Of a stretch of DNA of 64,000 nt, positions 13,090-49,645 are shown in pieces. A program made the position numbers and the translations under genes. Each line of letters begins with the position of its first letter. The stretch's first letter is position 1. This DNA comes from a virus: IMG/VR virus record IMGVR_UViG_3300031251_000004, positions 1 through 64,000 of that record, one strand, 5' to 3'. The notes beneath the pieces were generated by a model. That model was not told the origin of the DNA. It made no database searches and saw only the letters and a list, made by a program, of their open reading frames with translations.

Positions 13090-13578
13090 TCACTGGTTTG
13101 GCTCTACATCTCTAATACATGGTGGGTCGAGGTGCCAAGGATTGTAATCTCTTGTTCGTTTTTCACCAACGAATAAATCATAATAATTACAGCGATAACA
13201 ACAATGACAAAAACAGCAACGAGTAAAACATTTTTTAAGTTCTATCAATGCTGTAAGATAAACTTGATTTATTGGAAGGGTTATATCAGGAGGACCAATT
13301 TTATTACAAAGCACGGAAACTAAGCCAGATTTTGCAAAGAGTACCATATCAGCATTATTTCGATTTGTTTGATCCCAAAGATCTCGTAAGACTAAAACAC
13401 GATAACCCTTGGCAATTTGTTCAGCTGGCCAATAACCATCTGATGCCACATATCCGTCAAATTGTGCTGCAGTTAAAACTTCCGTAATAAACAATTGACG
13501 AACAAAAGTTTTTAATACCTCACTTGACAAATCATTATTGATGAATATAATAGCTGGTGGAGAAGTGATAATAGCCAT
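13090..13578 (-). CDS. Hypothetical protein with Cys-rich C-terminus and two DGY motifs
   Basis: Start MAIITS at 13578 avoids overlap with dUTPase; CFTRCCFCHCCYRC. Confidence 0.6.
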   Translation of the reverse strand: MAIITSPPAIIFINNDLSSEVLKTFVRQLFITEVLTAAQFDGYVASDGYWPAEQIAKGYRVLVLRDLWDQTNRNNADMVLFAKSGLVSVLCNKIGPPDITLPINQVYLTALIELKKCFTRCCFCHCCYRCNYYDLFVGEKRTRDYNPWHLDPPCIRDVEPNQ

Positions 13579-13625
13579 ATAAATATAACATATAATGCCG
13601 AATAAAATTAGAAAGGAACTAATAA

Positions 13626-14141
13626 ATGAATGATACCATAATCCCATACAAAGAATCCGTTCCAACATTTAAGTTTGCTCTACGAGAAGATTTAAAAAAC
13701 GATAAAAGGTTTCTGCCAACACGAGCAGAACCGTTTGCATTAGGATACGATGTTAGAGCAGCAACAAAAGATAAAAAAGATATTATTTTACGTGCTGGTC
13801 AATATTTTAAAATTCCACTTGGATTTAGATCTTTTTGCCCATCGGGTTGGGGCTATGAATTACATCCTAGAAGTAGTTCATTCGCTAAAAAATCAATGCA
13901 CAACTTGATTGGAATAATTGATGAAACATTTCCCCTGGAATGCCAGATTGTTGGTCAATATATTCCTGATTTAGGATCGTTAGGAAAAGATCTAACTATA
14001 AAATTTGGCGATGCTATTGGTCAAATTATTCCAGTGCGACGACAAGATGCAATAATTGAAGATATTTCAAATGAAGAGATGGATAAAATGTTTAAAGAAA
14101 GAAATGCACCGCGAACCGGTGGTATAGGAAGTACAGGATAA
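13626..14141 (+). CDS. dut: Trimeric dUTPase
   Basis: GYDV, PRSS, GIID, GQII and RTGGIGSTG motifs. Confidence 0.9.
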   Translation: MNDTIIPYKESVPTFKFALREDLKNDKRFLPTRAEPFALGYDVRAATKDKKDIILRAGQYFKIPLGFRSFCPSGWGYELHPRSSSFAKKSMHNLIGIIDETFPLECQIVGQYIPDLGSLGKDLTIKFGDAIGQIIPVRRQDAIIEDISNEEMDKMFKERNAPRTGGIGSTG

Positions 14142-14687
14142 ATGTCATATATAGAACCAACAGGATGGATTCAAACATATACTGGAAAACAATTCTTTCC
14201 ATTGAATCCACAATTAGAAGATATATGTATAGAAGATATTGCACATAGTCTTTCTATGCTATGTAGATTTACCGGTCATTCACAGGAATTTTATTCCGTT
14301 GGTCAACATTCAATCTATGTTAGTAAGATGTGTAGTAAAGAAAACGAGTTAGCCGGGCTCTTACATGATGCAGAAGAAGCATATACTAATGATCTTGCCC
14401 GACCAATAAAACGATTGAAAGAGTTTGGGTTTTTCAGAAACGCTGGAGAAAATATTCAATCAGTAATACGATATAAATTTTCATTACCTAAAGAAGAGCC
14501 AGAAGAAATTAAATTTGTGGATCTAAAAATGCTTGCCACAGAAGCAAGAGATTTAATGTCTCCTCTACACGCAGATTGGAAACAACCAATAGAGCCATAT
14601 AATTTTCGTATAGAACCGGTACAGCCAAAAGAAGCAGAAAAAATGTTTTTAGAAAGATTTTATGAACTATACAAGAAAACAAAATAA
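14142..14687 (+). CDS. HD-domain phosphohydrolase (YfbR/5'-deoxynucleotidase-like)
   Basis: EDIAHSLS..CRF.GH..YSVGQHS..LLHDAEEAY..DL. Confidence 0.85.
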   Translation: MSYIEPTGWIQTYTGKQFFPLNPQLEDICIEDIAHSLSMLCRFTGHSQEFYSVGQHSIYVSKMCSKENELAGLLHDAEEAYTNDLARPIKRLKEFGFFRNAGENIQSVIRYKFSLPKEEPEEIKFVDLKMLATEARDLMSPLHADWKQPIEPYNFRIEPVQPKEAEKMFLERFYELYKKTK

Positions 14688-15010
14688 TGTCTAAAATAGT
14701 AGTTCAAGGGCGCGAACCACATGAAATAAAAGCTATGGAAGAAAAACGCAAAAAAGAAGCTGAGACGAAAAAGAAAGTTGTTGCACCAAAAGTAAAATCA
14801 TATTATGATGTTAAAGTAGAATGTATGGTTCCAATTACATTAATATATAAGGTGTTAGCTGATGATGAACAAGAAGCGTTAGAGTTATTTTCTAAAAAAA
14901 CACCAACACAAATGAAGCCAAATCTTTTATTAAAGAAAATAATAAAAGCTACGGTATATACATCAGGCAGCAGTATGATAAAATTTGTAAAAAACTATAT
15001 GGTGCGATAA
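14687..15010 (+). CDS. Hypothetical protein
   Basis: Translationally coupled ORF in the operon. Confidence 0.65.
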   Translation: MSKIVVQGREPHEIKAMEEKRKKEAETKKKVVAPKVKSYYDVKVECMVPITLIYKVLADDEQEALELFSKKTPTQMKPNLLLKKIIKATVYTSGSSMIKFVKNYMVR

Positions 15011-16435: not shown

Positions 16436-16442
16436 GGCACAT

Positions 16443-19081: not shown

Positions 19082-19088
19082 GAAAAAC

Positions 19089-19733: not shown

Positions 19734-19735
19734 AA

Positions 19736-20560: not shown

Positions 20561-20586
20561 CGCTATCAAAGTTTTAGCATACATAT

Positions 20587-23500
20587 ATGATTCAATATGT
20601 AATGCGAGCGTTCAAGACAACAGTCCCAACCGGTCATATCTACTGGGCTGTATTAAATACGCCAGACCTAACTGGTGCTGAATCTGGCTATAATCCTGCT
20701 GATCTTACAAATATAGTAATAGATTACTCGTTTGAAGTTCCAATTAATGGAACTGGTGGAGCAATCCCTCCGGGGCTCGCTGGAGGAGATCTTACTGGAA
20801 CTTATCCAGATCCCAGTGTCGCCAAAATAGCAGGAACTAAGGTAGCAACCACTACCCCGGCAGATGGTCAAGTGCTAACATATGTTGCAGCTAATAGCGA
20901 CTGGGAACCCAAGCCATCAATCGCTGGAGGCGGCAATGCAGGCGGAGATCTTTCTGGAACCTATCCGAACCCAGCTGTATCAAAAATACATTCAGCAACC
21001 GTTCCAGCAGCAGGAAGCTTAACGCCCGGTAATGTACTTCAAGTAAGCGGCGCATCGGCATTAACGTATGCGCCAATAAATCTTGCCGGTGGTATAAACA
21101 CCATAACTGGACAATTACCAACTGGGAATCAAGTTCCCCAAACTGTTGGCGGAGATCTTTCTGGAACCACAGTAAGCGCAACAGTAGCAAAATTAGATGG
21201 CTACGTTCTTTCTGCTCCAAATCCACAAATAGGACAAGTTTTAGAGTTCAATGGATCTACATGGGCACCATCTACAATATCTTCATCGTTCCCACCGAGT
21301 GGTGCTGCTGGCGGTGATCTATCTGGAACTTATCCTAATCCAACTGTAGCAAAATTACAAGGAAGAGCAGTAGCGTCAACCACTCCTCAAAACGGATACG
21401 TTCTAACTTGGAATACGACCAATAGCGACTGGGAACCAGCAAGGACATTTGCTTTTGAGGTTCAACCAAATCCATCATGGAGTCAGCCAACATGGTTCAT
21501 TGATCCATCTGGCGGAAATGATGCTAATGATGGATACACCGTAAGCACGCCAGTAAAAACTTGGGCACAAATCATTTCTCGTTTTGGAACTTATTCTCCA
21601 TTACTTACACAAAATACAACATTTACATTCTTATCCAATCATACAGATAATACTGATCCAGTTATATTTACGCCTTACCTCGGCGGGACTGGCATTACTG
21701 TTATTATTACAGGTGTGCTAAATACGTCAAATCAAGTTTCAACCGGGCCGCTTTCTGGTTTAATTGCTAAAAATAGAAATACTGGAACATTACTAGCGGC
21801 TGCATTAACCAATAATCCAGTACCCGGGTGGTTCGTACATGATATAAACAATGATGGGTACTGCTGGGTATACAAAAATCCAAGCCCCAATGTTGCAACG
21901 TTATCACAACCAATGGAATCTTCAGTAAGCGCATTAGCTGCTGATAATGCTTCTCCATCAGAAATTGATAGCACTGCCACTAATGATATCTATATAGCAT
22001 ACGAACCAATACACGTAAACATTATGCAGATTACAACTCAATCTTCTGGATCAGAAGAAAGTTATATCGCCGGTAGAATTATTATACAAAACTTAGTTAT
22101 TTTTGATCCTGCTAATAGTGATGATAATAACAGCGCCATACTCGGTAATTATGTAGCACTGGCAGAAACAAGAGTGGATAGATACACTATTATTTATCAA
22201 ACTGAGTTATCAAGCGAACTACCAGTATTAAATTGTTTTATAGGAAATGCTATTATCAGTGCAACGGCGTTATTGTACGGCGGTATCTTAGGAAGAGCTA
22301 GTGACGCTGTTGTTGTAGAAATAACAGAAGGATTTTACCCTGTATTAGATGCAGATATCATATTAGCATATGATTTAACTGCATTTTGCAATCTATACGC
22401 AGGATATTACTATATTGAACAAGGAGCAAGATTACTGGCTTATCCAAGAAGTACAATAGAATCATTAGGATCATATGTTGATGGCTATTGTGCTGTGTGG
22501 GGACCTGGCAGTATAAACGTAGATTCAATTTATATTTATAATGATCTACTAACTAACACTGCACAAGGATATTTCAAGCATACCGGATCACTAACAATCA
22601 ATAGTAAATCGACTGCATACTCTTTTGATCCAAGCGGGAATGGTGCGTGGAGAAACAGAATACCAATTACTCCAACACAATTAGATGCATCACTATCTAG
22701 TGGAGGTTTTGCCGGGACAGCACTGATTCCCGGTGGGGGAATAATAACTGCTTTTGGTGGTGATCAACATGGGTATAATTATGCTCCAAGCGATGCATTA
22801 TTAGTACCAAACTGGTGTATAGATCCACAATTTGGTAACGATTCGAATGATGGTAAATCATCGATGACTCCAATTCGTACTTGGGCTGAATTAGTTAGAC
22901 GATGGGGAAGCTCTTCTCCGGTGTTCAATGTACCGGTTACTATTACATTCTTATCTGATCAATTAAATTTCAATGATCCAGTTTATCTTAATCCTGGTTT
23001 TGGTTCTGGTGGCAGTTTAACCATAGTGGGTGCACTACAGCATCAATTTAATACTAACTTATCTGGAGTCATACCCAAGAATCCAACTGCTACTGGACCT
23101 AATCCAGCCGGTTTATTGCAAGCTAATTTAACAACCGCTGCCGATGGTTATGCCGGGTATTTGCTAATCAATAATACTCAGGGCGGAGCCGTTTGCTGGA
23201 TTGACAGTATCTCAAGTGGAATGGCAGTGTTGACCAATCCGTTCGTTCCCAATTACCCAACATATAATACTTCACCTAATCAGGTCAATACCTTTACTAA
23301 CGGTGATGCGATTTCCATTTATCAGCCCACCAAAATTTATGTCAGCGGATTTACCCAAGGCATTGGCGCTGGAACTATTCTTTTCGTTCATTTGTGGTTA
23401 GTTGATCCAACTGGGACGGTCGGAAATACCGAAGTAGCTTTACCGCTTTCTTCGTCTTGTAATGAAACCAGAATGGATGTTTACACTCTATTCAATTTGG

Positions 23501-25452
23501 TTAGTACAGAAGCTACTGTCTCTGCCCTAGTTAACTCTTGGGCTAATGGTGGTGTGAGTATTTTAGGCGGTTCTATGGTGGGTGGAGCGGCTGGTACTGC
23601 TTTAGTTAATTCGGTTGGCATTAACGGATTTGTCGACGGAGATGCTGTTATTCATGGAATTACTTCCTTTGGCGATGCTCAAGGACAAGGGTTTTTTAGT
23701 AATCAAATTGGTTCCGTTTATATAGACAATTCCAGCTTAGCTATTTCCGATAATACTACATACATTATTGGAGATTTATTATTGGACAGTGATGCTGGTA
23801 CCAATTATACCTACGGCATATATGGTCAATATAAATTAAATTTGAACGAGGTTTCCTGTAGACTAACCTATATCAACCCAAGCTCTGCTACATCGTGGTT
23901 TAAGGGAACTCCTACTTTGCTAATGGATGGTCTTCCTTTTGCTAATGCTTATGATCGAACTCAAGATCCGGGAGTTTGGCATCCGGCTCGCGCCCTCACT
24001 CCAGCTAACTTGGACTTACCAGTTATTCAGGGTGGATTTGGTGGATTAGCCATAGGTGACGGTGGTTCTATTATTAGTGATGGCTATCAAACCTCGTCTA
24101 TTATCGTTCCTAGTTTGTCTTTCTTCGTAGATCCTTCTAATGTTAGCGGGCTAGCTTCCGATGGTTATGATGGTCTAACTTCATCAACTCCTATTTTGAC
24201 AATCGCCGAATTGAATCGTCGATATCGTGGTCGTACCATTAATGTTCCCACTACGGTTACCATAATGAGCAATATACTAAGTGGTGATGATCCTCTCGAT
24301 CTTTCAACCATTACCATAACTCCAAGTGGAACTTTATTGTTTGCCGGCACCCCACAAATTAAATACTCTGGCACACTAACATCTGGAACTATTGCAATAA
24401 ACCCACTAGGTAACCAACGACAAGTATTAGAAGATACTGCACTGGGTGCTACTGGATGGGATGGTTATGTAGGAGATATTATAACAAGTTTAACGGCAGA
24501 TGGATATGAGGCGTGGGTCGTCAAATTAGACGGTGTTGCTAGTGCTGATAAGGCTTTTGCTAGTAGGGCATACAACTATAATGCTGGTACGATTGGCGGT
24601 TATCATAGTGGAGATACTTATCAAATAAGCATTGGTAGCGATATGAGGTTAGGAAACATAAGCCCTAAGGCACTAACAGTTTTAAACTTCATACAGTCCT
24701 CCGGACAACTTAATTTTCAAGATTTTAATTTCGTTAGTACATCAAGTGTGTCTATCCCAACTTTCATCGACAATATTGGTATGATATTTATCAGATGTAA
24801 ATTTGGAGATCCTCTTGTATTTAGTGCCGGATCCTGCGCGACTACACTTGAGAATTGTTATGTTGGTAATTTTCCTATACCTCCATCAGGTAATTTTAGT
24901 GATCAAGGTATACAATCAGTAGCGCCAGAGGGATTCCAGTTTGAAGCCGGGGTTTACCAATCTTATCAATCGGATTTTTGTGCTTATTTAGCGCTTACCA
25001 ACGACGTTTATGTGACAGGTTGGGGTATAGAAGTTGGACCATCTAACATAATAACATTGGGTGTAGAAGGTGGTAACCAAACCGGAAACGATGGTGGTGC
25101 ACAATTTCAAGACTGTTTATCATCAGCCATAACACTTTCATCATCGAATGCTACTCTCGGTGCTTACGAGCCGCTTCAAACAATTCTCGCCTGGGGAACT
25201 GGAAACGACGGATATGGCGTGTTAGTCGGGCAAGGCGTTAATTGCTTTGTAGGACCTTCCATTGTCACAGGCGCTATGGGCGACTTCGCTTTCAATACGA
25301 CTAATAATGGTATCATTTCCACTGCTCGTGCTTGGGACGAAACCAGTGGCACTTGGACAGCCCCAATTGCTACCACATGGACAAATCTTTCTAGTAGCCT
25401 AGAAAATAACGCACACAATGTGGCAACTAATTCCGTTATTATTAGCAAATAA
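20587..25452 (+). CDS. Large tail fibre/spike-like virion protein with three tandem modules
   Basis: GGDLSGTYPNP repeats; three (W/F)x(I/V)DP..NDG..P(V/I)xT modules; 10 DGY. Confidence 0.8.
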   Translation: MIQYVMRAFKTTVPTGHIYWAVLNTPDLTGAESGYNPADLTNIVIDYSFEVPINGTGGAIPPGLAGGDLTGTYPDPSVAKIAGTKVATTTPADGQVLTYVAANSDWEPKPSIAGGGNAGGDLSGTYPNPAVSKIHSATVPAAGSLTPGNVLQVSGASALTYAPINLAGGINTITGQLPTGNQVPQTVGGDLSGTTVSATVAKLDGYVLSAPNPQIGQVLEFNGSTWAPSTISSSFPPSGAAGGDLSGTYPNPTVAKLQGRAVASTTPQNGYVLTWNTTNSDWEPARTFAFEVQPNPSWSQPTWFIDPSGGNDANDGYTVSTPVKTWAQIISRFGTYSPLLTQNTTFTFLSNHTDNTDPVIFTPYLGGTGITVIITGVLNTSNQVSTGPLSGLIAKNRNTGTLLAAALTNNPVPGWFVHDINNDGYCWVYKNPSPNVATLSQPMESSVSALAADNASPSEIDSTATNDIYIAYEPIHVNIMQITTQSSGSEESYIAGRIIIQNLVIFDPANSDDNNSAILGNYVALAETRVDRYTIIYQTELSSELPVLNCFIGNAIISATALLYGGILGRASDAVVVEITEGFYPVLDADIILAYDLTAFCNLYAGYYYIEQGARLLAYPRSTIESLGSYVDGYCAVWGPGSINVDSIYIYNDLLTNTAQGYFKHTGSLTINSKSTAYSFDPSGNGAWRNRIPITPTQLDASLSSGGFAGTALIPGGGIITAFGGDQHGYNYAPSDALLVPNWCIDPQFGNDSNDGKSSMTPIRTWAELVRRWGSSSPVFNVPVTITFLSDQLNFNDPVYLNPGFGSGGSLTIVGALQHQFNTNLSGVIPKNPTATGPNPAGLLQANLTTAADGYAGYLLINNTQGGAVCWIDSISSGMAVLTNPFVPNYPTYNTSPNQVNTFTNGDAISIYQPTKIYVSGFTQGIGAGTILFVHLWLVDPTGTVGNTEVALPLSSSCNETRMDVYTLFNLVSTEATVSALVNSWANGGVSILGGSMVGGAAGTALVNSVGINGFVDGDAVIHGITSFGDAQGQGFFSNQIGSVYIDNSSLAISDNTTYIIGDLLLDSDAGTNYTYGIYGQYKLNLNEVSCRLTYINPSSATSWFKGTPTLLMDGLPFANAYDRTQDPGVWHPARALTPANLDLPVIQGGFGGLAIGDGGSIISDGYQTSSIIVPSLSFFVDPSNVSGLASDGYDGLTSSTPILTIAELNRRYRGRTINVPTTVTIMSNILSGDDPLDLSTITITPSGTLLFAGTPQIKYSGTLTSGTIAINPLGNQRQVLEDTALGATGWDGYVGDIITSLTADGYEAWVVKLDGVASADKAFASRAYNYNAGTIGGYHSGDTYQISIGSDMRLGNISPKALTVLNFIQSSGQLNFQDFNFVSTSSVSIPTFIDNIGMIFIRCKFGDPLVFSAGSCATTLENCYVGNFPIPPSGNFSDQGIQSVAPEGFQFEAGVYQSYQSDFCAYLALTNDVYVTGWGIEVGPSNIITLGVEGGNQTGNDGGAQFQDCLSSAITLSSSNATLGAYEPLQTILAWGTGNDGYGVLVGQGVNCFVGPSIVTGAMGDFAFNTTNNGIISTARAWDETSGTWTAPIATTWTNLSSSLENNAHNVATNSVIISK

Positions 25453-34900: not shown

Positions 34901-37089
34901 CGGCTCACGCATTGACAATAACAGCTGGTGCAGCATCTACATGGTCAAGTTCTGGCGCATTAACAATTACATCTGGTGGAACTTCAACCTGGTCAACAAG
35001 TTCAGGAACTTTATATGTGGATGCAGCACAATATCTAAACCTTGGTGAAACTACAGCCCTTGCAATCAACATGGCTCAGCCAGGAATACTTACCACGGTA
35101 AACGGAACATTGACTGTCGAGCAAGGTACTACACTAAATAGCAGTCTAACTCAATCAAACGGTGCAGTTTCATTATCTGGTAATGCGGCATCAAGTTTTA
35201 CAACTTCAAGCGGCGGACTAACACTAACTGGTGCAGCAGCAAGTACATGGTCAACAAGCGCTGGACTATTAACAATAAATGGTCACACCGGTATAGCATT
35301 ACAAGATGCCGGGTCAACGTATCTAACATTAACGACTAATCAACTACAATGGGCTCAGAGCGCGTTTACACCAGTAATCAATCAAGCTGCCGCAGTAAAT
35401 AATGGAACATCATTTACTATTAGCTCTCAAAATGCCGGTGGAAGTGGTTATAACGGTGGTGATTTAATCCTAACATCTGGTGCTAAAACTGGTAGCGGAT
35501 ATGATGGATATATCTATTTAGAAGCTGGCGGTAATATAGAAGCATTTATTATGTCTGCCGATGCAACATCTGCTGGCGGACTTGGAATTGGTACTACACC
35601 CGGAAGTGATCCAACAATTACTCGTGGTTCTGGTATTCCAACCACAACTCAACCAAATGGAAGCCTTTTCTTACGAACTGATGGTGACGCATCATCAACC
35701 ATCTATATTAGAGAAGCTGGTACATGGAGCATAATATCCGGAGCAGGCGGTACTCCAGGCGGTAGTGCTGGTGGAGATCTTAGTGGAACTTATCCTAACC
35801 CAACAGTTGCTAAGGTTGATGGAGTTGTATATCCAGCAAGCCCAAGCACAAATACTGTTCCGGTTGTAACAGCCAGTAATACTGTTACATATCAGCAAAT
35901 TGCTAATGCCCAAGTTTCGGCTACAGCTAATATCGCAGTTAGCAAACTAGCTGCTGGTACGGCTGCACAACTATTACTAAATAACTCTACACCTACTCCA
36001 ACTTGGACAACAGTTAGCGGAGATGCAACGATCTCGGCTACCGGTAGTGTTACAGTTATATCTTTGGACGGTTATACATTACCAAGTCCAACGCCTGGAG
36101 TTTTGCAAGAAGTTGGCGGTAATCTTGTATGGAGTACGGTAAATCTAGCATCATCAACTTATGTGTCTGGCGTTCTTCCAACTGCAAATCAAGCAGCACA
36201 ATCACTCACTCTAACAGGTGATGTAACAAGTTCAGGTGGAACAACAGCATCAGCGTCCACAACGGTTGCAAAAATACAAGGCGTTGCAATTACTGGAACA
36301 CCAGCTGCTGGCTATGTATTAGAAGCGACAAGCCCAACCGCAGCATCTTGGCAAGCTCTTACCAGTGTTACATTAAGTGGAGATGTAACCGGAACAACCG
36401 CATCAAACATTCTATCATCAATAGATGGTTATGCGCTTCCAAATCCGGGACAACATCAAGGCGTATTACAGTCTGCAAGCAACGGTGCATTATCTTGGAG
36501 CACAGTAAATCTTGCATCTAGCTCGTATGTGTCTGGTAATCTTCCCGTAGCAAACATTGCTCCAGGAACTTCTGCTCAAGTTTTGATGAGCAATGGAACA
36601 CCAGCAACAACTTGGACAACATTAAGTGGCGATGTTACAATAAGCGCGACTGGCGCTACAACTGTAAATAGTATTAGTGGCAGCTCACCTATTGCAATAT
36701 CTGCGGCAACACTAAACTTCACTGGTGGAACTGGAAACTTACAATCAAATGGAACCACGGTTGCTAGTATTACTGCTAATAAACTAATAACATCAAAAGG
36801 TATTCGAAGAAATGTAACAACAGTTAGTGGTTCAACATATACAGCACTAGCCACTGATGATATCATTGCAGCAGATCCAACCAGTAATACAATAGCAATT
36901 ACATTACCGTCTTCACCAACAACAGGTGATACGCTTGTAATTAAAGATATAACTGGTCAAGCAAATACAAATAATATAACGATTACACCAGCATCCGGCA
37001 ACATTGATGGAGCTAGTAACTTTGTTATAGATATGAATTATGCAAGTATTACAGTGGTATTTACAGGAGCTCAATGGAGCGTATTGTAA
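31924..37089 (+). CDS. Long Ser/Thr/Gly-rich tail fibre-like protein
   Basis: 1721 aa; GGDLSGT and L(S/T)GDV repeats; internal duplications; 7 DGY. Confidence 0.8.
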   Translation: MSFSGKPTNANELILWDGTEFYSGKLTGNNIDTASTTAIQINGELIGTAFGANNGTTIPTLTSGSGVPSTTPANGSLYMRVDGTGSTGLYTYQSGTWVSVSGSGTFSAGGDLSGTSSNQTVIAIQGNAVEAGVLGSTQDGYVLTWVNASSQWQPKPSEVSLYGDVNGTSASSTVVAIQGNTITSGALTKGQFFVATSTSNWAATTLSGDVNESATTPGQLTVIQINGSTVPAGGSLTTGNVLQVNGSSSLTYAAVNLAGGSNYVTGVLPTGNQANQSLTLTGDITGSGTTVGTATTLANTAVSAGSYGSSTQVGTFTVDAKGRLTAASNTTISGTTPGGVAGGDLSGTYPNPTIGSLDGYALPSPTPGVLEEVGGSLVWSTVNLASSTYVSGILPTANQAAQTMGGDVSGTTASATVIKVDGVSYPASPSTNTVPVVTASNTVTYQQIADAQVSATAAIAGTKISPNFGTQNVTTSGNITTTSTGSITSNTTVTAVSGVITPSVDTSGASTLTLGTTNATKVQIGTSGNTTEILGNLQVDGAETIIGTSIFQQAATFDGNVTVADGYSFTVIGATGGTFSINGDGASTLSTSSGALTIDGYASTLIQANGSTQIDVSTNGVQLFSGSQSLGGGVGVLGFTNATTDPTTNPSNGAILYSSGGVLNIRQSNGTTFPITSGATAFTAGGDLSGTATSQQVISLTGTTGTVSTASSTSTIQFNTASTSPTFNQANNTAASGTGTALTVQAQNATGSTSTGGALHLTSGTGTTVAGNVLIQTGGTTQLTVSPTAVTFASLSGGGSQAFVTVSTSGVISTTAISAGGDLNGNYPNPYVSSLSGSGGTGNLVTINSGFLEWASTVGACVLSQATTSTGGSGTLTVRARDSSASGHVGADLNLCAGYGPSGIGTLRLQTGSSAGSSPSIGGSNDQVVITTTSIALTPSLLNWTGGTGDLQSNGSTIIQISTGTATVTGALNQSSGAFSLAGNGASSITTTSAHALTITAGAASTWSSSGALTITSGGTSTWSTSSGTLYVDAAQYLNLGETTALAINMAQPGILTTVNGTLTVEQGTTLNSSLTQSNGAVSLSGNAASSFTTSSGGLTLTGAAASTWSTSAGLLTINGHTGIALQDAGSTYLTLTTNQLQWAQSAFTPVINQAAAVNNGTSFTISSQNAGGSGYNGGDLILTSGAKTGSGYDGYIYLEAGGNIEAFIMSADATSAGGLGIGTTPGSDPTITRGSGIPTTTQPNGSLFLRTDGDASSTIYIREAGTWSIISGAGGTPGGSAGGDLSGTYPNPTVAKVDGVVYPASPSTNTVPVVTASNTVTYQQIANAQVSATANIAVSKLAAGTAAQLLLNNSTPTPTWTTVSGDATISATGSVTVISLDGYTLPSPTPGVLQEVGGNLVWSTVNLASSTYVSGVLPTANQAAQSLTLTGDVTSSGGTTASASTTVAKIQGVAITGTPAAGYVLEATSPTAASWQALTSVTLSGDVTGTTASNILSSIDGYALPNPGQHQGVLQSASNGALSWSTVNLASSSYVSGNLPVANIAPGTSAQVLMSNGTPATTWTTLSGDVTISATGATTVNSISGSSPIAISAATLNFTGGTGNLQSNGTTVASITANKLITSKGIRRNVTTVSGSTYTALATDDIIAADPTSNTIAITLPSSPTTGDTLVIKDITGQANTNNITITPASGNIDGASNFVIDMNYASITVVFTGAQWSVL

Positions 37090-37134: not shown

Positions 37135-37554
37135 TTGTCATATAAGGAACCACGAGCACTAACTACCGACTTTGGATTAATCAAATTATCCGGAGATCTT
37201 GCTGGCACAGCCGCATCTCCAATAGTAATAAGAATTAATACACACACGGTTGCAACACAAACTCTTGGTGCATCACAAGATGGATATGTACTGACTTGGG
37301 TGAATGCAACATCATCTTGGACTGCTGAATCTGCTCCTGGTAGTTCTGGACCAACTGGAACGGCTGGCGGAGATCTTAGTGGAACTTTTCCTAACCCAAC
37401 AGTTGTAGCATTACAAACAATTCCAATTATAACAACCGCTCCAACTAACGGACAAGTACTGACATACGTTTCAGCTGATGGAAAATGGGAACCAAAAACA
37501 GTAACGGGAGCTACACCAAGTATTGCTCGCACATTTATGCTTATGGGCTGCTAA
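37135..37554 (+). CDS. Short fibre-associated protein
   Basis: AGGAG with TTG start; GGDLSGTFPNP; QDGYVLTW. Confidence 0.75.
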   Translation: MSYKEPRALTTDFGLIKLSGDLAGTAASPIVIRINTHTVATQTLGASQDGYVLTWVNATSSWTAESAPGSSGPTGTAGGDLSGTFPNPTVVALQTIPIITTAPTNGQVLTYVSADGKWEPKTVTGATPSIARTFMLMGC

Positions 37555-37566
37555 TAGGAAAATACA

Positions 37567-37911: not shown

Positions 37912-37966
37912 TATCTAAAACTTTTTTCAATATACTAAAACTTTGGTATTTATTTAGGAAAAATAT

Positions 37967-40105
37967 ATGTCTCAAGGCACCGCAGTAACTGTAAATAACA
38001 TAAACCTAGTCTCTTTGAGTGGTGATATCACCGGCAACACCATTGACGGCTATGTTTCTTCTATTAGCGGTCCATCTCCAGTCATCGTTACACCTAACTC
38101 TTTACAATGGCTTAGCTCGGTTACCTCTCCTACTTTAACTCAAGCTTCTTCAGCTAATCCCGGACAAAATCTAACCATTCAAGCTCAAGGTACTGGCGGA
38201 GGTGGAGCAGGCGGCAATTTAATTCTTGCTTCTGGAACTTCATTATTTGGCAGTGCCGGCAATATCATCTTTCAATTAGGCGCTACGACAGGTTTGACTT
38301 TATTATCTACTGGAACTTTGCAGTTTCCGGCTACCGCTACAGCAACCATCAATCAAGCTGCCTCTACCGGAGGCGCTACTAATTTAAGCATTACTGCCCA
38401 ATCAGCTGGTGGCGCTGGAGACAACGGTGGAGCTTTAGTATTGACTTCAGGAGCTTCCACTACAACTGGTACTTCTGGTAATGTTATTATTAATACGGCT
38501 ACTCCAGGTGGTGGTACTGCTGGTAATATCTTATTTCAGGTTAGTGGTACTACTCAGGCTTTCGTTAATAGCTTTGGTGTTGGTATCGGATCTACTCCTG
38601 GCACTTCTCCTACTATTACTTCTGGTTCTGGCGTTCCAACTTCCACCCAACCGACTGGCTCTCTTTATCTAAATACCAGCGGTTCAACAATTACCGGTGT
38701 TTATACCCGCACTACCAGCTGGCTACCAATCAACGCCTACACAGGCTTAATAGCTCCAATTACAGCTACCACTAATACTAATACCGTTGCAGTATACACT
38801 GTCGACAGCACTTCTGGTAATGACGGAGTTATTCTTCATTTTCACACTGGTCCTACAACTTACGTAATGCCATCCCCTGCTCCCGGACGACAAATCATTA
38901 TTCGAGATATTACTGGTGCCATCGAAACTACCAATCAAACTGGCGGATATGTTACTGGCTCCGGAGCTACTAGCAACGTTATTTTTGTTGCTCCTCATGG
39001 TACCGAATCTTTTAATGGGAGTGCTGGCTATATATTAACTGGAGGTTCTACTTTTCACGTTACTAATAACTCAGCCGCCGTCACTTGCAGCACTGGTTTA
39101 TTTACCACTGAACTTGCACCCGGCATGAGCATCACATTTGGCGCTCAATCTGGTGTATCTTACGTAATCTCTTCCATCGGATCAGCAACTTCACTCACAC
39201 TTACCTCTGTGTATACAGGTACCACTAGTACTACCTCTTCTGCCACTATGAATAGTTTAGCTTACTATGCTAACTGGGGTACTCTTACTTTGACAAGTGA
39301 TGGTACTAACTGGTTCGCTACTAGCAATAAACCCATGCGTGTTTACTTAACTGCTAACGGTACTTTTATCCCTTCTCCTGGCTGTACTGCTGCTTATTTA
39401 GTTGGCTGCGGAGGTGGTGGAGGTGGTGCTGGTGGTGGTGGAACTAGTACTTCTGGTGGTGGCGGAGGCGGCGGCGCACTTCAATCGATTATGATAACCA
39501 CGCTTACTCCTAATATTGCTAGTGGTTATACCGTGGTAATTGGTGCTGGTGGGACAGGTGGAGTCGCTAACTCAGCTGGCACTACTGGTAATCCAGGAAA
39601 TAATACTTCTTTTGGTACCTTAGCATATTTTTATGGTGCCTCTGGTGGTAGCAGCAGTGGAGGTCTTTTTAATTCTCCCGGTGGTTTATTTTTTACTAAT
39701 AGTGGTACAAATATGTATTCTTCTTCTAGCGCTGCCGTTGGCACTGGATCTGCGTCTCTTGCGGCCGCAACTACTCAACTTCAAGGAAGTACATCGCCAG
39801 GATCTATTGCCATGGGTGGGTCTGGCGGAGCAAATAGTATAAGCGGTGTTGCTGGAATGATCAATACCAGTTCGAATCTAGCAACGGCTTATGTTGCTGG
39901 TACCGGAGGCGGAAGCAACGGCGGTGGCGGCGGCGGTGCTGGACCTCAAGGCAACGGTGGCAACGCTGGTGCTGCCTCAAGTGTAGGATCATCGGCTTCC
40001 GCTAATACTGGAGCTGGAGGTGGCGGTGGTGGTATTCTTGCCAGTACTGGCACCGCTGGCGGAAACGGTGGAAGTGGATATCTCTATGTATATACTTGGA
40101 TGTAA
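37967..40105 (+). CDS. Glycine-rich tail fibre-like protein, paralog 1 of 4
   Basis: MPxPxxGRQIIIRDITG; poly-Gly C-terminal domain ending GGSGYLYVY. Confidence 0.8.
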   Translation: MSQGTAVTVNNINLVSLSGDITGNTIDGYVSSISGPSPVIVTPNSLQWLSSVTSPTLTQASSANPGQNLTIQAQGTGGGGAGGNLILASGTSLFGSAGNIIFQLGATTGLTLLSTGTLQFPATATATINQAASTGGATNLSITAQSAGGAGDNGGALVLTSGASTTTGTSGNVIINTATPGGGTAGNILFQVSGTTQAFVNSFGVGIGSTPGTSPTITSGSGVPTSTQPTGSLYLNTSGSTITGVYTRTTSWLPINAYTGLIAPITATTNTNTVAVYTVDSTSGNDGVILHFHTGPTTYVMPSPAPGRQIIIRDITGAIETTNQTGGYVTGSGATSNVIFVAPHGTESFNGSAGYILTGGSTFHVTNNSAAVTCSTGLFTTELAPGMSITFGAQSGVSYVISSIGSATSLTLTSVYTGTTSTTSSATMNSLAYYANWGTLTLTSDGTNWFATSNKPMRVYLTANGTFIPSPGCTAAYLVGCGGGGGGAGGGGTSTSGGGGGGGALQSIMITTLTPNIASGYTVVIGAGGTGGVANSAGTTGNPGNNTSFGTLAYFYGASGGSSSGGLFNSPGGLFFTNSGTNMYSSSSAAVGTGSASLAAATTQLQGSTSPGSIAMGGSGGANSISGVAGMINTSSNLATAYVAGTGGGSNGGGGGGAGPQGNGGNAGAASSVGSSASANTGAGGGGGGILASTGTAGGNGGSGYLYVYTWM

Positions 40106-40116
40106 AGGTCAAATAA

Positions 40117-42234: not shown

Positions 42235-42248
42235 TGAGGAATGAGTAA

Positions 42249-44339: not shown

Positions 44340-44352
44340 TTAAGGTTCAATA

Positions 44353-46248: not shown

Positions 46249-46251
46249 ACC

Positions 46252-48657
46252 TTACACACTAATCCACATACCACCATCCCATACAACTGTAATTCCCTCA
46301 TAATTCACAGCTATTATATACGTGGCAGCCCCATCAATCATATTGCCATTACCATCAACTGTTATATTGTATGTTGCTGCACTTCCACGCCCATCTTTAA
46401 TATCAAATGTCTGACCAATCGTTGGAATCAATGGTAATGTCACAGTTATCATACCAGTCAATACACCAGCAGATATAACAGAATCCGTTGCAACCACGCC
46501 ATAACTATTAGTAATAACTGTTACGTTTTGTACAACACCCGAGTTCCCAATTTTCTTTGCTTCCCACGCACTATCTGCATTAACCCACGTCAATACATAA
46601 CCATCTTCGCCAGCACCTAATACTTCTGGCAAAATAGGATTACCAGATAGTTTGGAAACAGTATTAGCACCAGTTGTTCCGGTAACATCACCGAGCATTG
46701 TTTGCTGTACTTGATTTGCTGTTGGCAACATTCCGGTAACATGACTGCTTCCACCAGCAAGATTTACTGCAGCATATCCCAATGATGCTACTCCAGTAAC
46801 AGTCAGCACACTTCCAGGAACAAGACTACCAGATATAGGAACAGTTGCTCCATTAATCTTTGCCACGGTTGGATTAGGATATGTATTCGACAAATCACCA
46901 CCAGCAGCACCAGTTGGTACTGCCATTACATTCATCGGTCCCCATGTCATTCCATCCCAACCCAAAAACTGATTTACTACAGGACCGGCATCATTTACAG
47001 GATTCCCTTGCAATCCGGTTACAATGGGATCTGGATATGTATTACCTAAATCTCCGGCAGCCAATCCAGTTGGTGGCAATGACGTTGGAATAGTAATTGT
47101 TGTTGGCTCCCATAGAGTATCTGTTGCACTCCACACAAGAGATTGACCATCTGTTGGTGCAATTGACTTTACAGGATATCCCTGTATACCTATTACAGTT
47201 TGGGTTGTAGTAGTACCAGATAGATCACCACCGGCAGTAAATGCTGGCGTTACACTTAACCCAGACCATTCATATCCATCATATACAAAATACTGACCAA
47301 CCGTAGGTAATGTGTTTGATACTGGAACTCCTTGTATTTGAATTACGGTTGGATCTGGGTAATAACCATCTAGATCACCTCTTGCTGGTCCGGTTGGCGT
47401 GCTGGTAAATGATATTGTTGCTGGTTGCCAGGCAATACCAGAATACTCTAATATCTGACCCGTCGTTGGAACTATTGGCGCTACCGGAATACCACGTAAT
47501 GCTGATACAGTTGATGTATTAGTAAATCCTGTAACATCACCAGACATTGCTTGATCTGCTTGATTAGCCGTTGGTAATATGCCAGTAACGGACAATGTAA
47601 GATCAACTAATCCGTATCGTAATGCACTACCACCACTAACTTGTAAAACATTACCAACTACAAGACTACCACTAACAGGAACTGCTGCTCCATTTATTTT
47701 AACTACCTGTGAGGTTGTAGCAGTTCCAATAACATCACCAAGTAGTGTTTGTGGTGCTTGATTACTTGCTGGTAATAGACCTTCAACATAATTACTACCA
47801 CCAGCGAGATTTATTGGAGCATAGTTTAGAAACGAACTACCAAATACCTGTAATACATATCCGTCAGTTAGACTGCCAGCAGCTGGAACGAATGCTCCAT
47901 TTATTCTTCCAACAGTTGGATTAGGATATGTACCAGAAAGATCCCCACCAGCAGAACCAGTTGGCGTTGAACTTGGAGAGCTTGGCGTCCACTCACCACC
48001 TATAAATGTTAGTACTTGATTTGCTGTTGGCGTTGTTGAACTGACTGGTACTGTATATATACCAATAACTATTTGATTTGTAGCTGTACCAGAAAGATCT
48101 CCGCCTGGAATAAAACTATTACCTATTAATGGAACATAAGCATATCCATCTTGTGATACTAAAAACTGATTTGAGTAGCCATCAAAGTATATGATACCTT
48201 GACCAGGATTAGACACATTTCCTAACGGTGCATCGATGGCATCAACGATTATCTTCCCATCAATTTCTAATAGCCCTGTAGTTTCTGATGCACTGTCTAT
48301 TGGACCAGATACGATACCGCCAGTTGTGGATATATTTTGCGCTAGAAAATTATTAGATCCGTTTGGAGTTGGTCCCCAGGAAGTTCCATTCCAGATTATT
48401 GTTTGTCCGGGTTCTGGAATACCAGAAGATATAATATTACCAGCGCCATTGGTATTGAATAGCACGCCCTCTAATGCATCTAGTCTAGCCCGTACCGTAG
48501 AATAAATACCCTGAGGTTTTACTCCAAGGGTGGCTTCTATAGCTAAAATTGCATCGCGCAAAATATTAACCGAACCTGCTTTTACAGGAGTAATATTATC
48601 CAATATCGTAGGTAGAGTAATGCTACTGTCTATTTGCGCGGGGAATTTAGTTGCCAT
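46252..48657 (-). CDS. Virion fibre protein with GDL.G.YP.P repeats (paralog of 30630..31895)
   Basis: Shared N- and C-terminal domains; 6 DGY. Confidence 0.8.
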   Translation of the reverse strand: MATKFPAQIDSSITLPTILDNITPVKAGSVNILRDAILAIEATLGVKPQGIYSTVRARLDALEGVLFNTNGAGNIISSGIPEPGQTIIWNGTSWGPTPNGSNNFLAQNISTTGGIVSGPIDSASETTGLLEIDGKIIVDAIDAPLGNVSNPGQGIIYFDGYSNQFLVSQDGYAYVPLIGNSFIPGGDLSGTATNQIVIGIYTVPVSSTTPTANQVLTFIGGEWTPSSPSSTPTGSAGGDLSGTYPNPTVGRINGAFVPAAGSLTDGYVLQVFGSSFLNYAPINLAGGSNYVEGLLPASNQAPQTLLGDVIGTATTSQVVKINGAAVPVSGSLVVGNVLQVSGGSALRYGLVDLTLSVTGILPTANQADQAMSGDVTGFTNTSTVSALRGIPVAPIVPTTGQILEYSGIAWQPATISFTSTPTGPARGDLDGYYPDPTVIQIQGVPVSNTLPTVGQYFVYDGYEWSGLSVTPAFTAGGDLSGTTTTQTVIGIQGYPVKSIAPTDGQSLVWSATDTLWEPTTITIPTSLPPTGLAAGDLGNTYPDPIVTGLQGNPVNDAGPVVNQFLGWDGMTWGPMNVMAVPTGAAGGDLSNTYPNPTVAKINGATVPISGSLVPGSVLTVTGVASLGYAAVNLAGGSSHVTGMLPTANQVQQTMLGDVTGTTGANTVSKLSGNPILPEVLGAGEDGYVLTWVNADSAWEAKKIGNSGVVQNVTVITNSYGVVATDSVISAGVLTGMITVTLPLIPTIGQTFDIKDGRGSAATYNITVDGNGNMIDGAATYIIAVNYEGITVVWDGGMWISV

Positions 48658-48673
48658 AGGTATGCTTCAATAA

Positions 48674-48701
48674 TATGCAACAATATCGATATTATTGCAT
48701 T
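48674..48701. promoter_or_regulatory. Palindromic bidirectional candidate late promoter
   Basis: ATGCAACAATATCGATATTATTGCAT between divergent virion genes; TATCGAT-N6-GCAT on both strands. Confidence 0.55.
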
Positions 48702-48706
48702 TCAAT

Positions 48707-49645
48707 ATGGCAACTTCTTACATTATGCGCGCATTTAAAACTTCACTGCCGGATGGGTATGTATCTTGGGCGGTAATAAATGCTCCTGATTACACTGGTG
48801 AGTTCTCTGAATATAATCCAGCAGAACTTATCGATATCACATTAGATTATTCTATACCAACGCGTGTAAATGGAACTGCCGGTCCGGTAATTGGTTATGC
48901 CGGTGGCGATTTAGCTGGGACTTTTCCAAATCCAACTGTAATTGGATTACAAACTAACCCGATTTCACAATTACAACCAACAGCAGGACAAGTACTTGCC
49001 TGGGATCAAGTAAGCAAAACTTGGATGCCAAAAACATTGCCGGGCAATATGGCAACTCCATTACAAGTAAACTCCGCCGTTATTACAAATCATACAGGAA
49101 CATTAGCCGGTGTGTCATTTGCTCTAGCACCAAACGGATATGCGTTTCAGGTTCTTGGTGGAACTATGGTTTTAGCACCAATAAATGTTGGTGGAGGCGC
49201 GAATTATATTACAGGATATTTGCCAGTCGACAACGGCGGTAATACGATCAAATCGTATGAAATAACAGCAGTTGGAACCACAGTAAACACATCATTGACA
49301 ACATTCCAAACAGTAGGATCTTTTTCAGTTGATCCAACAAGATTTTCACCTGCAAGCACCGGTGGAACAAGAACAATAACTCTTCAAGCAATACTTTCTA
49401 CTACTGGCGTAACAATGGAGTTGCAACTATACAATCTTGGAACAGGAATGTTAGTTTCTCTTGGCGGCGGAGATGTTTTTCAATCAGCAGATTTAATACC
49501 AACGTTATATACATCACAGGATCTTACATCTCTTTTATCAAGTGAATTATCACAATACGAAGTTAGAATTAGACAGACAATTATTGGTACAGCTTTAGAT
49601 CAATCAATTTGCGAAATGTGTAAATTACAAGTAGATTGGACTTAG
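48707..49645 (+). CDS. Virion protein sharing its N-terminal module with 20587..25452
   Basis: YIMRAFKT..W.V.N.PD.TG..YNPA.L; GGDLAGTFPNP. Confidence 0.75.
   Translation: MATSYIMRAFKTSLPDGYVSWAVINAPDYTGEFSEYNPAELIDITLDYSIPTRVNGTAGPVIGYAGGDLAGTFPNPTVIGLQTNPISQLQPTAGQVLAWDQVSKTWMPKTLPGNMATPLQVNSAVITNHTGTLAGVSFALAPNGYAFQVLGGTMVLAPINVGGGANYITGYLPVDNGGNTIKSYEITAVGTTVNTSLTTFQTVGSFSVDPTRFSPASTGGTRTITLQAILSTTGVTMELQLYNLGTGMLVSLGGGDVFQSADLIPTLYTSQDLTSLLSSELSQYEVRIRQTIIGTALDQSICEMCKLQVDWT

What the first reader, a model, noticed from the sequence alone, without database searches (positions are those of the whole stretch)
13090..49645. D-G-Y tripeptide strongly enriched in virion proteins: candidate phage modification or binding sequon
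Seen: about 32 DGY tripeptides: 10 in 20587, 7 in 31924, 6 in 46252, 4 in 30630, 2 in 13090, and 1 each in 37135, 37967 and 48707. None was noticed in the enzymes (NrdJ, DnaB, PhoH, MetAP, IMPDH). A rough composition-based expectation is only 1-2. DGY is not part of one repeat unit. It replaces other residues at different homologous positions: GDLSGTYP becomes GDLDGYYP, GSLT(P/T)GNVLQV becomes GSLTDGYVLQV, VAKINGATV becomes VAKLDGYVL, and VPTGHIYW becomes LPDGYVSW. The four Gly-rich fibres, which have a different codon bias, carry only one in ~2,740 aa. Inference: repeated, independent gain of a short surface motif points to selection for a virion-wide tag. It could be an acceptor for Tyr O-glycosylation or another modification, an Asp-Gly isomerisation or cross-linking site, or a docking site for a decoration protein.
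Basis: partly seen in the sequence, partly recalled or inferred. Interest (0 to 1): 0.88.

Follow-up and report, generated by a model that had tools for sequence, protein, structure and literature searches.

The report
DGY tag on huge-phage virion proteins
The tail-fibre and baseplate proteins of this uncultured huge phage and its whole clade carry the exact tripeptide Asp-Gly-Tyr about ten times more often than chance, a real and undescribed surface motif that something appears to read, perhaps the phage's own sugar-transferases, although no modification has been shown.

Summary
On the 102-kb contig DGY is the most over-represented of all tripeptides (45 seen, 4.6 expected, P=6e-29).

- **Level:** it acts on the protein, not the DNA, and is exact and ordered. 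Permutations and one-residue neighbours (DGF, NGY, EGY, SGY, DAY) sit at expectation.
- **Clade-wide:** two near-complete relatives (406 and 361 kb) and a 78-kb relative show the same, confined to the virion module.
- **Recurrent gain:** in 120 orthologues of one baseplate protein DGY occurs 508 times (22.6 expected) at 59 sites. 48 sites are rare and lineage-specific, often in insertions. No other tripeptide behaves like this.
- **Repeat share:** about half of the window's DGY lie in a DUF5907-like fibre repeat, but repeat-free baseplate proteins are just as enriched.
- **Outgroups:** Bacillus phage G (nearest cultured relative), an unrelated 462-kb phage and T4 fibres lack the enrichment.

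The best reading is a selected surface motif, most plausibly a Tyr acceptor for conserved phage glycosyltransferases. This is inferred, not shown. The scan had already noted this tag in at least 24 other genomes. I found no published description.

The parts
20587..25452 (+). 1621-aa fibre/spike protein, 10 DGY (0.42 expected). Two sit in beta-helix N-cap-like contexts, one in the fibre repeat, and the rest are singletons.
   Evidence: weak PHROG hit only
30630..31895 (+). 421-aa fibre protein, 4 DGY (0.13 expected). C-terminal part resembles the proximal tail-fibre subunit.
   Evidence: phrog_972, E 9e-5
31924..37089 (+). 1721-aa fibre protein, 7 DGY (0.15 expected)
37135..37554 (+). 139-aa protein with one DGY in the DGY-V-L-T-W module. 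DUF5907 hit just under the cut-off.
   Evidence: PF19264, 26.8 bits against cut-off 27
37967..40105 (+). First of four Gly-rich fibres (Gly_rich_2 domain), 1 DGY near the N-terminus. The other three (40117-46248) have none, but Asp is very scarce in them.
46252..48657 (-). 801-aa fibre protein, 6 DGY (0.17 expected). In the model, four sit at hairpin turns or strand starts, one in a short bridged segment and one in the loop after a strand. The N-terminus resembles CBA120 TSP4 / T4 gp10-type attachment domains.
48695..49645 (+). 316-aa protein of unknown family, 1 DGY
13090..13668 (-). 192-aa protein of unknown family outside the fibre block, with two DGY six residues apart. Its orthologue in the 406-kb relative has three.
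26968..27921 (-). 317-aa GT-B glycosyltransferase (Glyco_trans_1_3 / MJ1255 family) in a minus-strand island inside the fibre gene block. Candidate reader. Conserved in all four clade genomes searched and absent from phage G.
26357..26971 (-). 204-aa HAD-type (sugar-)phosphatase next to the GT-B
28940..30145 (-). 401-aa FAD-dependent oxidoreductase of unclear subfamily in the same island. Conserved in relatives. No link to DGY shown.

Best explanation
DGY is a short, exact, surface-located motif that selection keeps adding to and retaining on virion proteins of this huge-phage clade: fibres, baseplate giants, sheath and some head-module neighbours. It is there because a specific macromolecule reads it.

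The most plausible reader is one of the phage's conserved cytoplasmic glycosyltransferases, with the Tyr hydroxyl as sugar acceptor and Asp-Gly presenting it on a tight turn. The candidates are:
- the GT-B at 26968-27921 inside the fibre block;
- the GT4 and GT2, with a dTDP-glucose 4,6-dehydratase-like enzyme, directly downstream of the baseplate genes at contig 74153-79742.

**Shown:** the enrichment, its exactness, its action at the protein level, its restriction to the virion module and to this clade, the recurrent gains in variable loops, and the conserved transferase genes.

For: 1. **Rank.** DGY is the top tripeptide in four genomes of the clade: 45 seen / 4.6 expected, 91/17.3, 73/15.3 and 32/4.3.
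2. **Virion module only.** In the 406-kb relative the virion module has 74 against 6.5 expected, and the rest of the genome 17 against 10.8.
3. **Exact and ordered.** Over 115,000 aa of virion modules DGY is 10.8 times expectation. Its permutations are 0.5-2.6 times. DGF, DGW, DGH, NGY, EGY, SGY, TGY, DAY and DSY are 0.8-1.5 times.
4. **Not a DNA motif.** The pattern GAYGGNTAY occurs 45 times in frame against 2 in other sense frames and 5 antisense. Codon use at DGY equals the genome's.
5. **Recurrent gain.** In 120 orthologues of one baseplate protein DGY occurs 508 times against 22.6 expected, at 59 sites of which 48 are rare. Rare sites per expectation are 2.12, against a median of 0.22 and a next-best value of 0.94 among 3550 tripeptides. 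DGY also appears as insertions and tandem copies between orthologues.
6. **Surface-like location.** 22 of 49 rare sites lie in insertion columns that hold 4.4% of residues. The others lie close to indel hot spots and in less conserved stretches. No extended flanking consensus exists.
7. **Persistence.** The enrichment is 8-18 fold in every identity bin down to 28% across 65 diverse representatives of that baseplate family.
8. **Candidate readers.** The GT4, the GT2, a possible GT2-like protein (weak WcaE match), an unassigned 349-aa protein and the dehydratase-like enzyme lie directly downstream of the baseplate genes, co-oriented with them, and are conserved in all relatives examined. The GT-B is conserved in all four searched.
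9. **Outgroups lack both.** Phage G (major capsid protein 54% identical) has DGY at 1.6 times expectation, like DGF at 1.7 times, and no homologue of these genes. The unrelated 462-kb phage LR756500 has DGY at 1.1 times and no GT4 or GT-B.
Against: - No modification has been observed. No virion proteomics exists for this uncultured clade.
- The link between transferases and DGY rests on one phylogenetic contrast (clade against two outgroups), so shared ancestry confounds it.
- The transferases could serve something else, such as DNA base glycosylation. A thymidylate-synthase-like gene, a DNA methyltransferase and an exonuclease lie nearby. They could also modify host envelope glycans.
- In the fibre repeat the Tyr of DGY-V-L-T-W lies in register with Leu and Trp on one strand face, which suggests a packing role there rather than an exposed acceptor.
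- In the structure model, four of six DGY sit at hairpin turns or strand starts. This also fits a purely conformational role.
- T4 virion proteins show a mild DGY excess (11 against 3.3), so a small intrinsic preference may exist.
- No Tyr-directed protein glycosyltransferase with a D-G-Y sequon is known (own knowledge; no paper found).
Confidence: 0.38

Rival explanations
1. DGY is an intrinsic structural or adhesive element with no separate reader. It forms a Tyr-tipped tight turn (Asp-Gly turn, with Tyr starting the next strand) that stabilises thin beta-rich fibre and baseplate domains. Alternatively it acts as many weak, antibody-loop-like contact points for host surface polysaccharide.
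For: - In the model of the 46252 protein, four of six DGY sit at hairpin turns or strand starts.
- Flanks are modestly enriched in hydrophobic and aromatic residues.
- DGY often arises at pre-existing x-G-x turn positions of the fibre repeat and of the baseplate protein.
- The DUF5907-like repeat variant carries two DGY per unit at fixed positions.
- T4 virion proteins show a mild excess.
- The motif marks proteins that face the host.
Against: - A conformational preference should also raise NGY, DGF, DGT and EGY, but all are at expectation.
- Orthologues work with zero DGY.
- Equally large beta-rich virion proteins of phage G and LR756500, and T4 gp34/gp37, lack it.
- Gains by insertion of bare DGY or DGY-DGY in variable loops are hard to explain by fold stability.
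- Generic stickiness would not demand an exact order.
Confidence: 0.27
2. DGY is a docking or recognition site for a protein partner, or the target of a Tyr-directed modification other than glycosylation. Partners could be a decoration protein, an assembly chaperone or a sorting factor for late virion proteins. Other modifications could be phosphorylation, sulfation, nucleotidylation or oxidative cross-linking.
For: - The same exactness, clade restriction, virion restriction and recurrent gain in loops as for the best explanation.
- Short spacings of 3-6 residues between DGY copies suggest multivalency.
- An FAD-dependent oxidoreductase of unknown role is conserved inside the fibre gene block.
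Against: No candidate partner, kinase or sulfotransferase was identified. The oxidoreductase matches only through its generic FAD-binding N-terminus. Dozens of sites per protein is unusual for a docking motif.
Confidence: 0.2
3. Asp-Gly chemistry is the point. DGY sites undergo spontaneous succinimide and isoaspartate formation, or cross-linking, acting as a maturation or ageing device for the virion.
For: Asp-Gly is the sequence most prone to isomerisation (established chemistry; aspartimide review PMC12447389 surfaced). The motif is surface-located.
Against: This chemistry depends little on the following residue, yet only Tyr is enriched after Asp-Gly: DGY is 25% of all DG-x on the contig, 6 times background. 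Asn-Gly, which deamidates even faster, is not enriched before Tyr.
Confidence: 0.05
4. The enrichment is only inheritance: paralogous copies of one fibre repeat unit, or a mutational process that inserts a fixed 9-mer, with no selection on the tripeptide.
For: 18 of the 32 window sites fall in six recurrent repeat contexts. In DGY-rich fibre homologues about 200 of 468 DGY are in the two fixed positions of the repeat.
Against: - Repeat-free baseplate proteins are enriched 10-22 fold.
- 362 non-redundant contexts exist with no common flank.
- Many gains are point substitutions from DGK, TGY, SGT, NGT or DGI.
- Codons at DGY follow genome usage rather than one 9-mer.
Confidence: 0.03

Closest known systems
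Virion glycosylation of mycobacteriophages by phage-encoded glycosyltransferases (Freeman et al. 2023, from own knowledge; a genome note that infers capsid glycosylation from two phage glycosyltransferases is PMC11256854)
   Same: Glycosyltransferase genes sit beside structural genes. The proposed outcome is a sugar-coated virion surface made in the cytoplasm.
   Different: There the glycans are O-linked to Ser/Thr-rich C-terminal tails of capsid and tail-tube subunits, and they were shown by mass spectrometry. Here the candidate acceptor is Tyr in an exact tripeptide scattered through fibre and baseplate proteins. The major capsid protein has none, and nothing has been shown chemically.
Short protein glycosylation sequons: N-X-S/T of the cytoplasmic N-glycosyltransferase HMW1C acting on the HMW1 adhesin, and D-(S/T)-(A/I/L/V/M/T) of Bacteroidota general O-glycosylation (own knowledge; PMC8698959 surfaced)
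   Same: A three-residue motif marks many sites on surface or adhesin proteins. In the Bacteroidota sequon it also starts with Asp. HMW1C shows that a soluble cytoplasmic enzyme can decorate an adhesin at dozens of sites.
   Different: The acceptor would be Tyr, not Asn, Ser or Thr. The 10-25 fold enrichment is far stronger than reported for those sequons. No transferase has been tied to DGY.
Tyrosine O-glycosylation of S-layer proteins (Paenibacillus alvei, Thermoanaerobacter; review PMC2943079)
   Same: A precedent for glycans on the Tyr hydroxyl of a bacterial surface array protein.
   Different: It happens outside the cytoplasm through a lipid-linked pathway at a few sites. No D-G-Y consensus is described for it.
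DUF5907 (PF19264) fibre repeat
   Same: The window's fibres and their homologues are built of the same unit of about 45 residues: a G-D-L-S-G-T-Y-P-N-P element, then I-Q-G, then G-Q-V-L ... W. Many homologues carry PF19264.
   Different: In this clade the x-G-x positions of the unit have been converted to DGY, up to two or more per unit. 37 of 120 homologues keep the canonical form with no DGY at all.
Tyrosine corner of Greek-key beta proteins (own knowledge)
   Same: A structural motif in which Tyr cannot be replaced by Phe and Gly lies nearby.
   Different: The classical corner has Gly at Y-2 and Pro at Y-3 (L-x-P-G-x-Y). Here Gly is at Y-1 and Asp at Y-2. The motif appears in inserted loops and is absent from related phages.

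Membership tests
Protein glycosylation sequon | A short fixed motif marks the target proteins and is specific in residue and order | tested here: met
   DGY is 10.8 times expectation. Permutations and one-residue neighbours are about 1 times.
Protein glycosylation sequon | The motif residue carries a covalently attached glycan | not testable with these tools
   The clade is uncultured and no proteomic data are at hand.
Protein glycosylation sequon | A cognate transferase co-occurs with the motif | tested here: inconclusive
   GT4, GT2 and GT-B are present in every clade genome searched and absent from phage G. LR756500 has only a distant GT2-like match. This is a single phylogenetic contrast, and other roles for these enzymes are not excluded.
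Mycobacteriophage-type virion glycosylation | Phage glycosyltransferase genes adjacent to structural genes | tested here: met
   GT4 and GT2 lie directly downstream of the last baseplate or Ig-repeat gene in G000, G001, G002 and G005. The GT-B lies inside the fibre block.
Mycobacteriophage-type virion glycosylation | Acceptors are Ser/Thr-rich C-terminal extensions of capsid and tail-tube subunits | tested here: not met
   The motif is Tyr-centred and scattered. The major head protein of the 406-kb relative has no DGY.
DUF5907 (PF19264) repeat proteins | Match to the Pfam model above the gathering score | tested here: inconclusive
   The 37135 protein scores 26.8 bits against a cut-off of 27. 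The large fibres give no hit, but many of their homologues carry PF19264.
DUF5907 (PF19264) repeat proteins | Repeat unit with the G-D-L-x-G-x-Y-P-x-P element followed by G-Q-V-L ... W | tested here: met
   Alignment consensus and contexts.
Generic Asp-Gly beta-turn preference | Conservative variants (NGY, DGF, DGT, EGY) are enriched as well | tested here: not met
   All are 0.8-1.5 times expectation in the virion modules. DGF is depleted in the baseplate orthologues, 9 against 34 expected.
Generic Asp-Gly beta-turn preference | Present in fibres and baseplates of unrelated phages | tested here: not met
   T4 gp34 and gp37 have 0. Phage G is 1.6 times genome-wide, with the excess from one paralogous module. 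LR756500 is 1.1 times, with 0 in all eight proteins of 900 aa or more.
Tyrosine corner | Gly at Y-2 and Pro at Y-3, with Tyr near a strand end | tested here: not met
   Gly is at Y-1 and Asp at Y-2. There is no Pro preference at Y-3.

The most novel reading that the evidence does not exclude
DGY is the acceptor sequon of a previously unknown Tyr-directed cytoplasmic protein-modification system of a large clade of 350-480 kb phages. Phage-encoded transferases would decorate the outer surface of fibres, baseplate and sheath at hundreds of sites per virion. The sequon is selected so strongly that it is repeatedly inserted into surface loops.
Probability: 0.38. Interest if true: 0.9.

Novelty: new variant of a known kind. 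Interest (0 to 1): 0.8.

Why it matters
**If DGY is a modification sequon.**
- It would be the first Tyr-directed sequon known for any virus.
- It would show that huge phages coat their host-contacting machinery with glycans at a density unknown for phages. That bears on host recognition, on protection from proteases or defence sensors, and on environmental persistence.
- An exact three-residue tag with a soluble transferase would also be a useful tool for site-specific protein labelling.

**If it proves to be purely structural or adhesive.** A tripeptide selected 10-25 fold over chance, and repeatedly inserted into loops across hundreds of uncultured genomes, would still be an unusually clean case of motif-level convergent evolution in virion proteins.

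Tried and rejected
**Explanations rejected**
- DNA-level motif: the pattern is in frame almost exclusively.
- Fixed 9-mer insertion: codons at DGY follow genome usage.
- Pure repeat inheritance.
- Generic beta-turn preference.
- A general property of huge phages or of big virion proteins.
- A loss lineage: the phage whose baseplate orthologue has 0 DGY is still DGY-rich overall and keeps the transferase locus, so it gives no natural loss test.

**Searches that gave nothing useful**
- Pfam gave no above-threshold family for the large fibres.
- The PDB sequence search gave no relative.
- The fibre protein has no tblastn match in GenBank phages.
- Pfam capsid families PF07068 and PF05065 found nothing in the relatives. 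The major head protein was found through PHROGs instead.
- The search for related loci with alignment A2 failed for lack of conserved stretches.
- The DGY-free fibre homologue P0086 and the DGY-free baseplate homologue P0279 were not found in IMG/VR. I therefore could not examine genomes of DGY-free homologues outside the clade.
- Literature searches for DUF5907, 'DGY motif' with tail fiber, and Asp-Gly-Tyr found nothing on phages.

**Limits of the structure work**
- The AlphaFold model of the 46252 protein is of moderate quality (pLDDT 70.9). It gives secondary structure only, so solvent exposure of the tyrosines could not be measured.
- The first alignment was too large for folding.
Full report
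**Where the window lies.** The window is the first 64 kb of a 101,913-base IMG/VR virus record judged 24% complete. Its B12-dependent ribonucleotide reductase is closest to those of uncultured huge phages. Near-complete relatives of 406 kb and 361 kb were found through a fibre protein and the Baseplate_J protein.
- Positions 20.6-52.6 kb of the window hold large fibre genes, interrupted by a minus-strand island of small enzyme genes at 25.4-30.1 kb.
- The rest of the contig holds a sugar locus (74.1-79.7 kb), then an Ig-repeat protein and a baseplate module with proteins of 1077, 2284, 1363 (Baseplate_J) and 714 aa.

**Checking the observation.**
- Composition predicts about 1.1 in those eight proteins.
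- Over all 104 ORFs of the contig there are 45 DGY against 4.6 expected. This makes DGY the most over-represented of all tripeptides (Poisson P=6e-29; the next, GGG, is 4e-22). Two thousand per-protein shuffles gave a mean of 4.7 and a maximum of 12.
- After Asp-Gly, Tyr follows in 25% of cases, 6 times background, and Phe once. Before Gly-Tyr, Asp stands in 34% of cases.
- The DNA pattern GAYGGNTAY occurs 45 times in the coding frame, twice in other sense frames and five times antisense. Codon choice at the three positions mirrors the genome's. The signal therefore lies in the protein, not the DNA.
- Non-virion genes hold only three DGY.

**How much is a repeat.** The contexts fall partly into recurrent classes. 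Homologues of the 46252 protein (120 listed, many on contigs of 350-510 kb) show why.
- The fibres are built from a DUF5907-like unit. It has a G-D-L-S-G-T-Y-P-N-P element, an I-Q-G element and a G-Q-V-L ... W hairpin.
- In 68 of the 120 homologues the x-G-x positions of this unit read DGY, typically twice per unit. Such proteins reach 25-27 DGY. Another 37 of the 120 keep the canonical unit with no DGY at all.
- This search is seeded by shared words, so it may favour DGY-bearing relatives.
- In the window 18 of 32 sites belong to six such contexts, which leaves about 20 independent contexts.
- In the DGY-V-L-T-W form the Tyr shares a strand face with Leu and Trp, so there it probably packs rather than protrudes. 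This is inferred from the alternation of residues along a strand.

**Beyond the repeat and beyond this contig.**
- In the 406-kb relative (95% complete) DGY is again the top tripeptide: 91 against 17.3, P=1e-35. The virion module at 55-192 kb has 74 against 6.5, and the remaining 81,000 aa have 17 against 10.8.
- In the 361-kb relative (Baseplate_J 52% identical) it is again top: 73 against 15.3. The 40-100 kb stretch has 44 against 3.2, mostly in repeat-free baseplate giants.
- Pooling the virion modules of four genomes (115,000 aa) gives DGY at 10.8 times expectation. The five permutations are 0.5-2.6 times, and the higher values come from overlaps such as Y-DGY. Every one-residue neighbour tested (DGF, DGW, DGH, NGY, EGY, SGY, TGY, DAY, DSY) is 0.8-1.5 times.
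- The sheath carries two DGY and proteins next to the major head protein carry two or three. The major head protein has none, and several large proteins (1641, 786, 673 and 1271 aa) have none in any genome.

**Site dynamics.** Alignments of six orthologous virion proteins between the close and the distant relatives (42-58% identity) show that roughly half of the DGY sites are conserved. That is far more than a random tripeptide at this divergence.
- Many other sites are lineage-specific. Several arise as insertions of a bare DGY, or of two DGY adjacent or one residue apart, where the orthologue has a gap.
- The 1077-aa baseplate protein has 120 listed full-length orthologues of at least 47% identity. 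Together they hold 508 DGY against 22.6 expected (median 4 per protein), spread over 59 alignment positions. A few positions are near-universal and 48 occur in six sequences or fewer.
- Measured as rare sites per expected count, DGY scores 2.12. The median of 3550 tripeptides is 0.22 and the next best is 0.94.
- In the same proteins DGF (9 against 34), DSY (7 against 28) and DAY (4 against 19) are depleted.
- Of 49 rare sites, 22 lie in insertion columns that hold 4.4% of residues. The others sit a median of 3 columns from an indel hot spot (9 for all core columns) and in less conserved surroundings.
- Across 362 non-redundant contexts there is no extended consensus, only a mild excess of aromatic and hydrophobic neighbours. 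Short spacings of 3-6 residues between copies recur.
- An exhaustive HMMER search finds this baseplate family in only 168 representatives. DGY remains 8-18 times expectation in every identity bin down to 28%, although 13 of 65 long members have none.
- One such zero-DGY orthologue lies on a 78-kb contig that is nevertheless DGY-rich overall (32 against 4.3, top tripeptide). Individual proteins vary, but the phage trait does not.

**Structure.** An AlphaFold model of the 46252 protein (55-row alignment, mean pLDDT 70.9) places its six DGY as follows:
- two in four-residue hairpin loops between strands;
- two as Asp-Gly loop with Tyr as the first residue of a strand;
- one in a short bridged segment;
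- one in the loop after a strand.

Foldseek matches the N-terminal part to the attachment domains of CBA120 TSP4 and to T4 gp9/gp10-type domains, which fits a fibre or spike subunit. The tool returns no coordinates, so exposure of the tyrosines could not be measured.

**Outgroups.**
- The major head protein of the clade is highly conserved: at least 76% identity in the best 80 of 316 IMG/VR loci.
- Its nearest match among GenBank phages is Bacillus phage G at 54%. In phage G, DGY is 33 against 20.8, rank 217, no different from DGF (35 against 21) or NGY (30 against 22.5). The only local excess comes from paralogous copies of one module.
- The unrelated 462-kb phage LR756500 has 22 against 19.7, rank 2300, and none in its eight proteins of 900 aa or more.
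- T4 structural regions show 11 against 3.3, and none in gp34 or gp37.

The enrichment is thus specific to this clade, with at most a weak general background.

**Candidate readers.** Directly downstream of the last baseplate or Ig-repeat gene, and co-oriented with it, lie five genes:
- a GT4;
- a GT2;
- an unassigned 349-aa protein;
- a 284-aa protein with a weak WcaE match (possible GT2);
- a dTDP-glucose 4,6-dehydratase-like enzyme.

On this contig a GIY-YIG homing endonuclease is inserted among them.

Inside the fibre block sits an island with a GT-B of the Glyco_trans_1_3 / MJ1255 family, a HAD phosphatase, an RNase T-like exonuclease and an FAD oxidoreductase.

Both sets are conserved in synteny in the relatives. 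The GT4 and the GT-B are present in every clade genome searched and have no homologue in phage G. This co-occurrence is one phylogenetic contrast and does not show a functional link. The enzymes could instead serve DNA or envelope glycosylation, and a thymidylate-synthase-like gene and a DNA methyltransferase lie nearby.

**Reading.**
- Five features argue that DGY is selected as a motif that something recognises, and not as a by-product of fold or composition. It is exact and ordered. Conservative variants are not enriched. It is restricted to virion proteins and to one clade. Gains recur in variable loops. Orthologues exist without it.
- The preference for Tyr over Phe fits either a need for the hydroxyl or simple surface exposure. 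At one well-conserved site the alternatives to Tyr are Asn, Ser, Asp and Thr, not Phe, which points to exposure.
- I rank a Tyr-directed modification by the conserved phage glycosyltransferases first (0.38), an intrinsic structural or adhesive turn second (0.27), and another reader or modification third (0.20).
- Nothing here shows a modification.

**Prior notes and literature.** The scan's notebook holds follow-up reports of the same tag in at least 24 other genomes of this clade, with the same leading reading. I treated these as leads only. Full-text searches found no published description of a DGY motif in phages, nor of DUF5907.

Noticed in passing
window 1-4000: The first 4 kb have 47-50% G+C against 29-33% in the following 16 kb and hold few convincing ORFs. 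Earlier notes of the scan propose structured RNA and promoters there.
   Followed up: no
window 20000-50000: Fibre genes have clearly higher G+C (39-47%) than the enzyme genes around and between them (28-33%). Their Gly-rich composition explains only part of this.
   Followed up: no
L005:11951-12844 (contig 75951-76844, minus strand): A GIY-YIG / NUMOD3 homing endonuclease is inserted inside the conserved sugar locus between the 349-aa and 284-aa genes. Further PHROG 'endonuclease' genes are scattered through the virion module of the 406-kb relative.
   Followed up: partly
G002 (IMGVR_UViG_3300034073_005389) 103149-104910: The major head protein gene of the 361-kb relative matches only residues 95-338 of its orthologue (87% identity), and a 312-aa ORF lies directly beside it. 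This may be an interrupted or intron-bearing capsid gene.
   Followed up: no
Bacillus phage G, JN638751.1 about 326000-343000: Four large phage G proteins share a paralogous module ending in N-G-R-H-T-D-G-Y-W-Y-V-R-G, in five to six copies. It accounts for the only local DGY excess in that genome.
   Followed up: partly
T4 NC_000866 gp18 residue 531: The T4 sheath carries G-G-D-G-Y-V-L-Y-G, which resembles the D-G-Y-V-L-T-W hairpin of the fibre repeat. This is probably coincidence or a shared hairpin type.
   Followed up: no
window 49650-52585: Three adjacent ORFs of similar size (312, 328 and 333 aa) have no family match and no DGY, directly after the DGY-rich fibres. Whether they are paralogues was not checked.
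   Followed up: no
contig 72688-74103 (outside the window): A tubulin-like gene lies between the sugar locus and the replication genes. It is 94% identical in the 406-kb relative and 56% in the 361-kb relative. The tubulin reading comes from an earlier scan note.
   Followed up: partly
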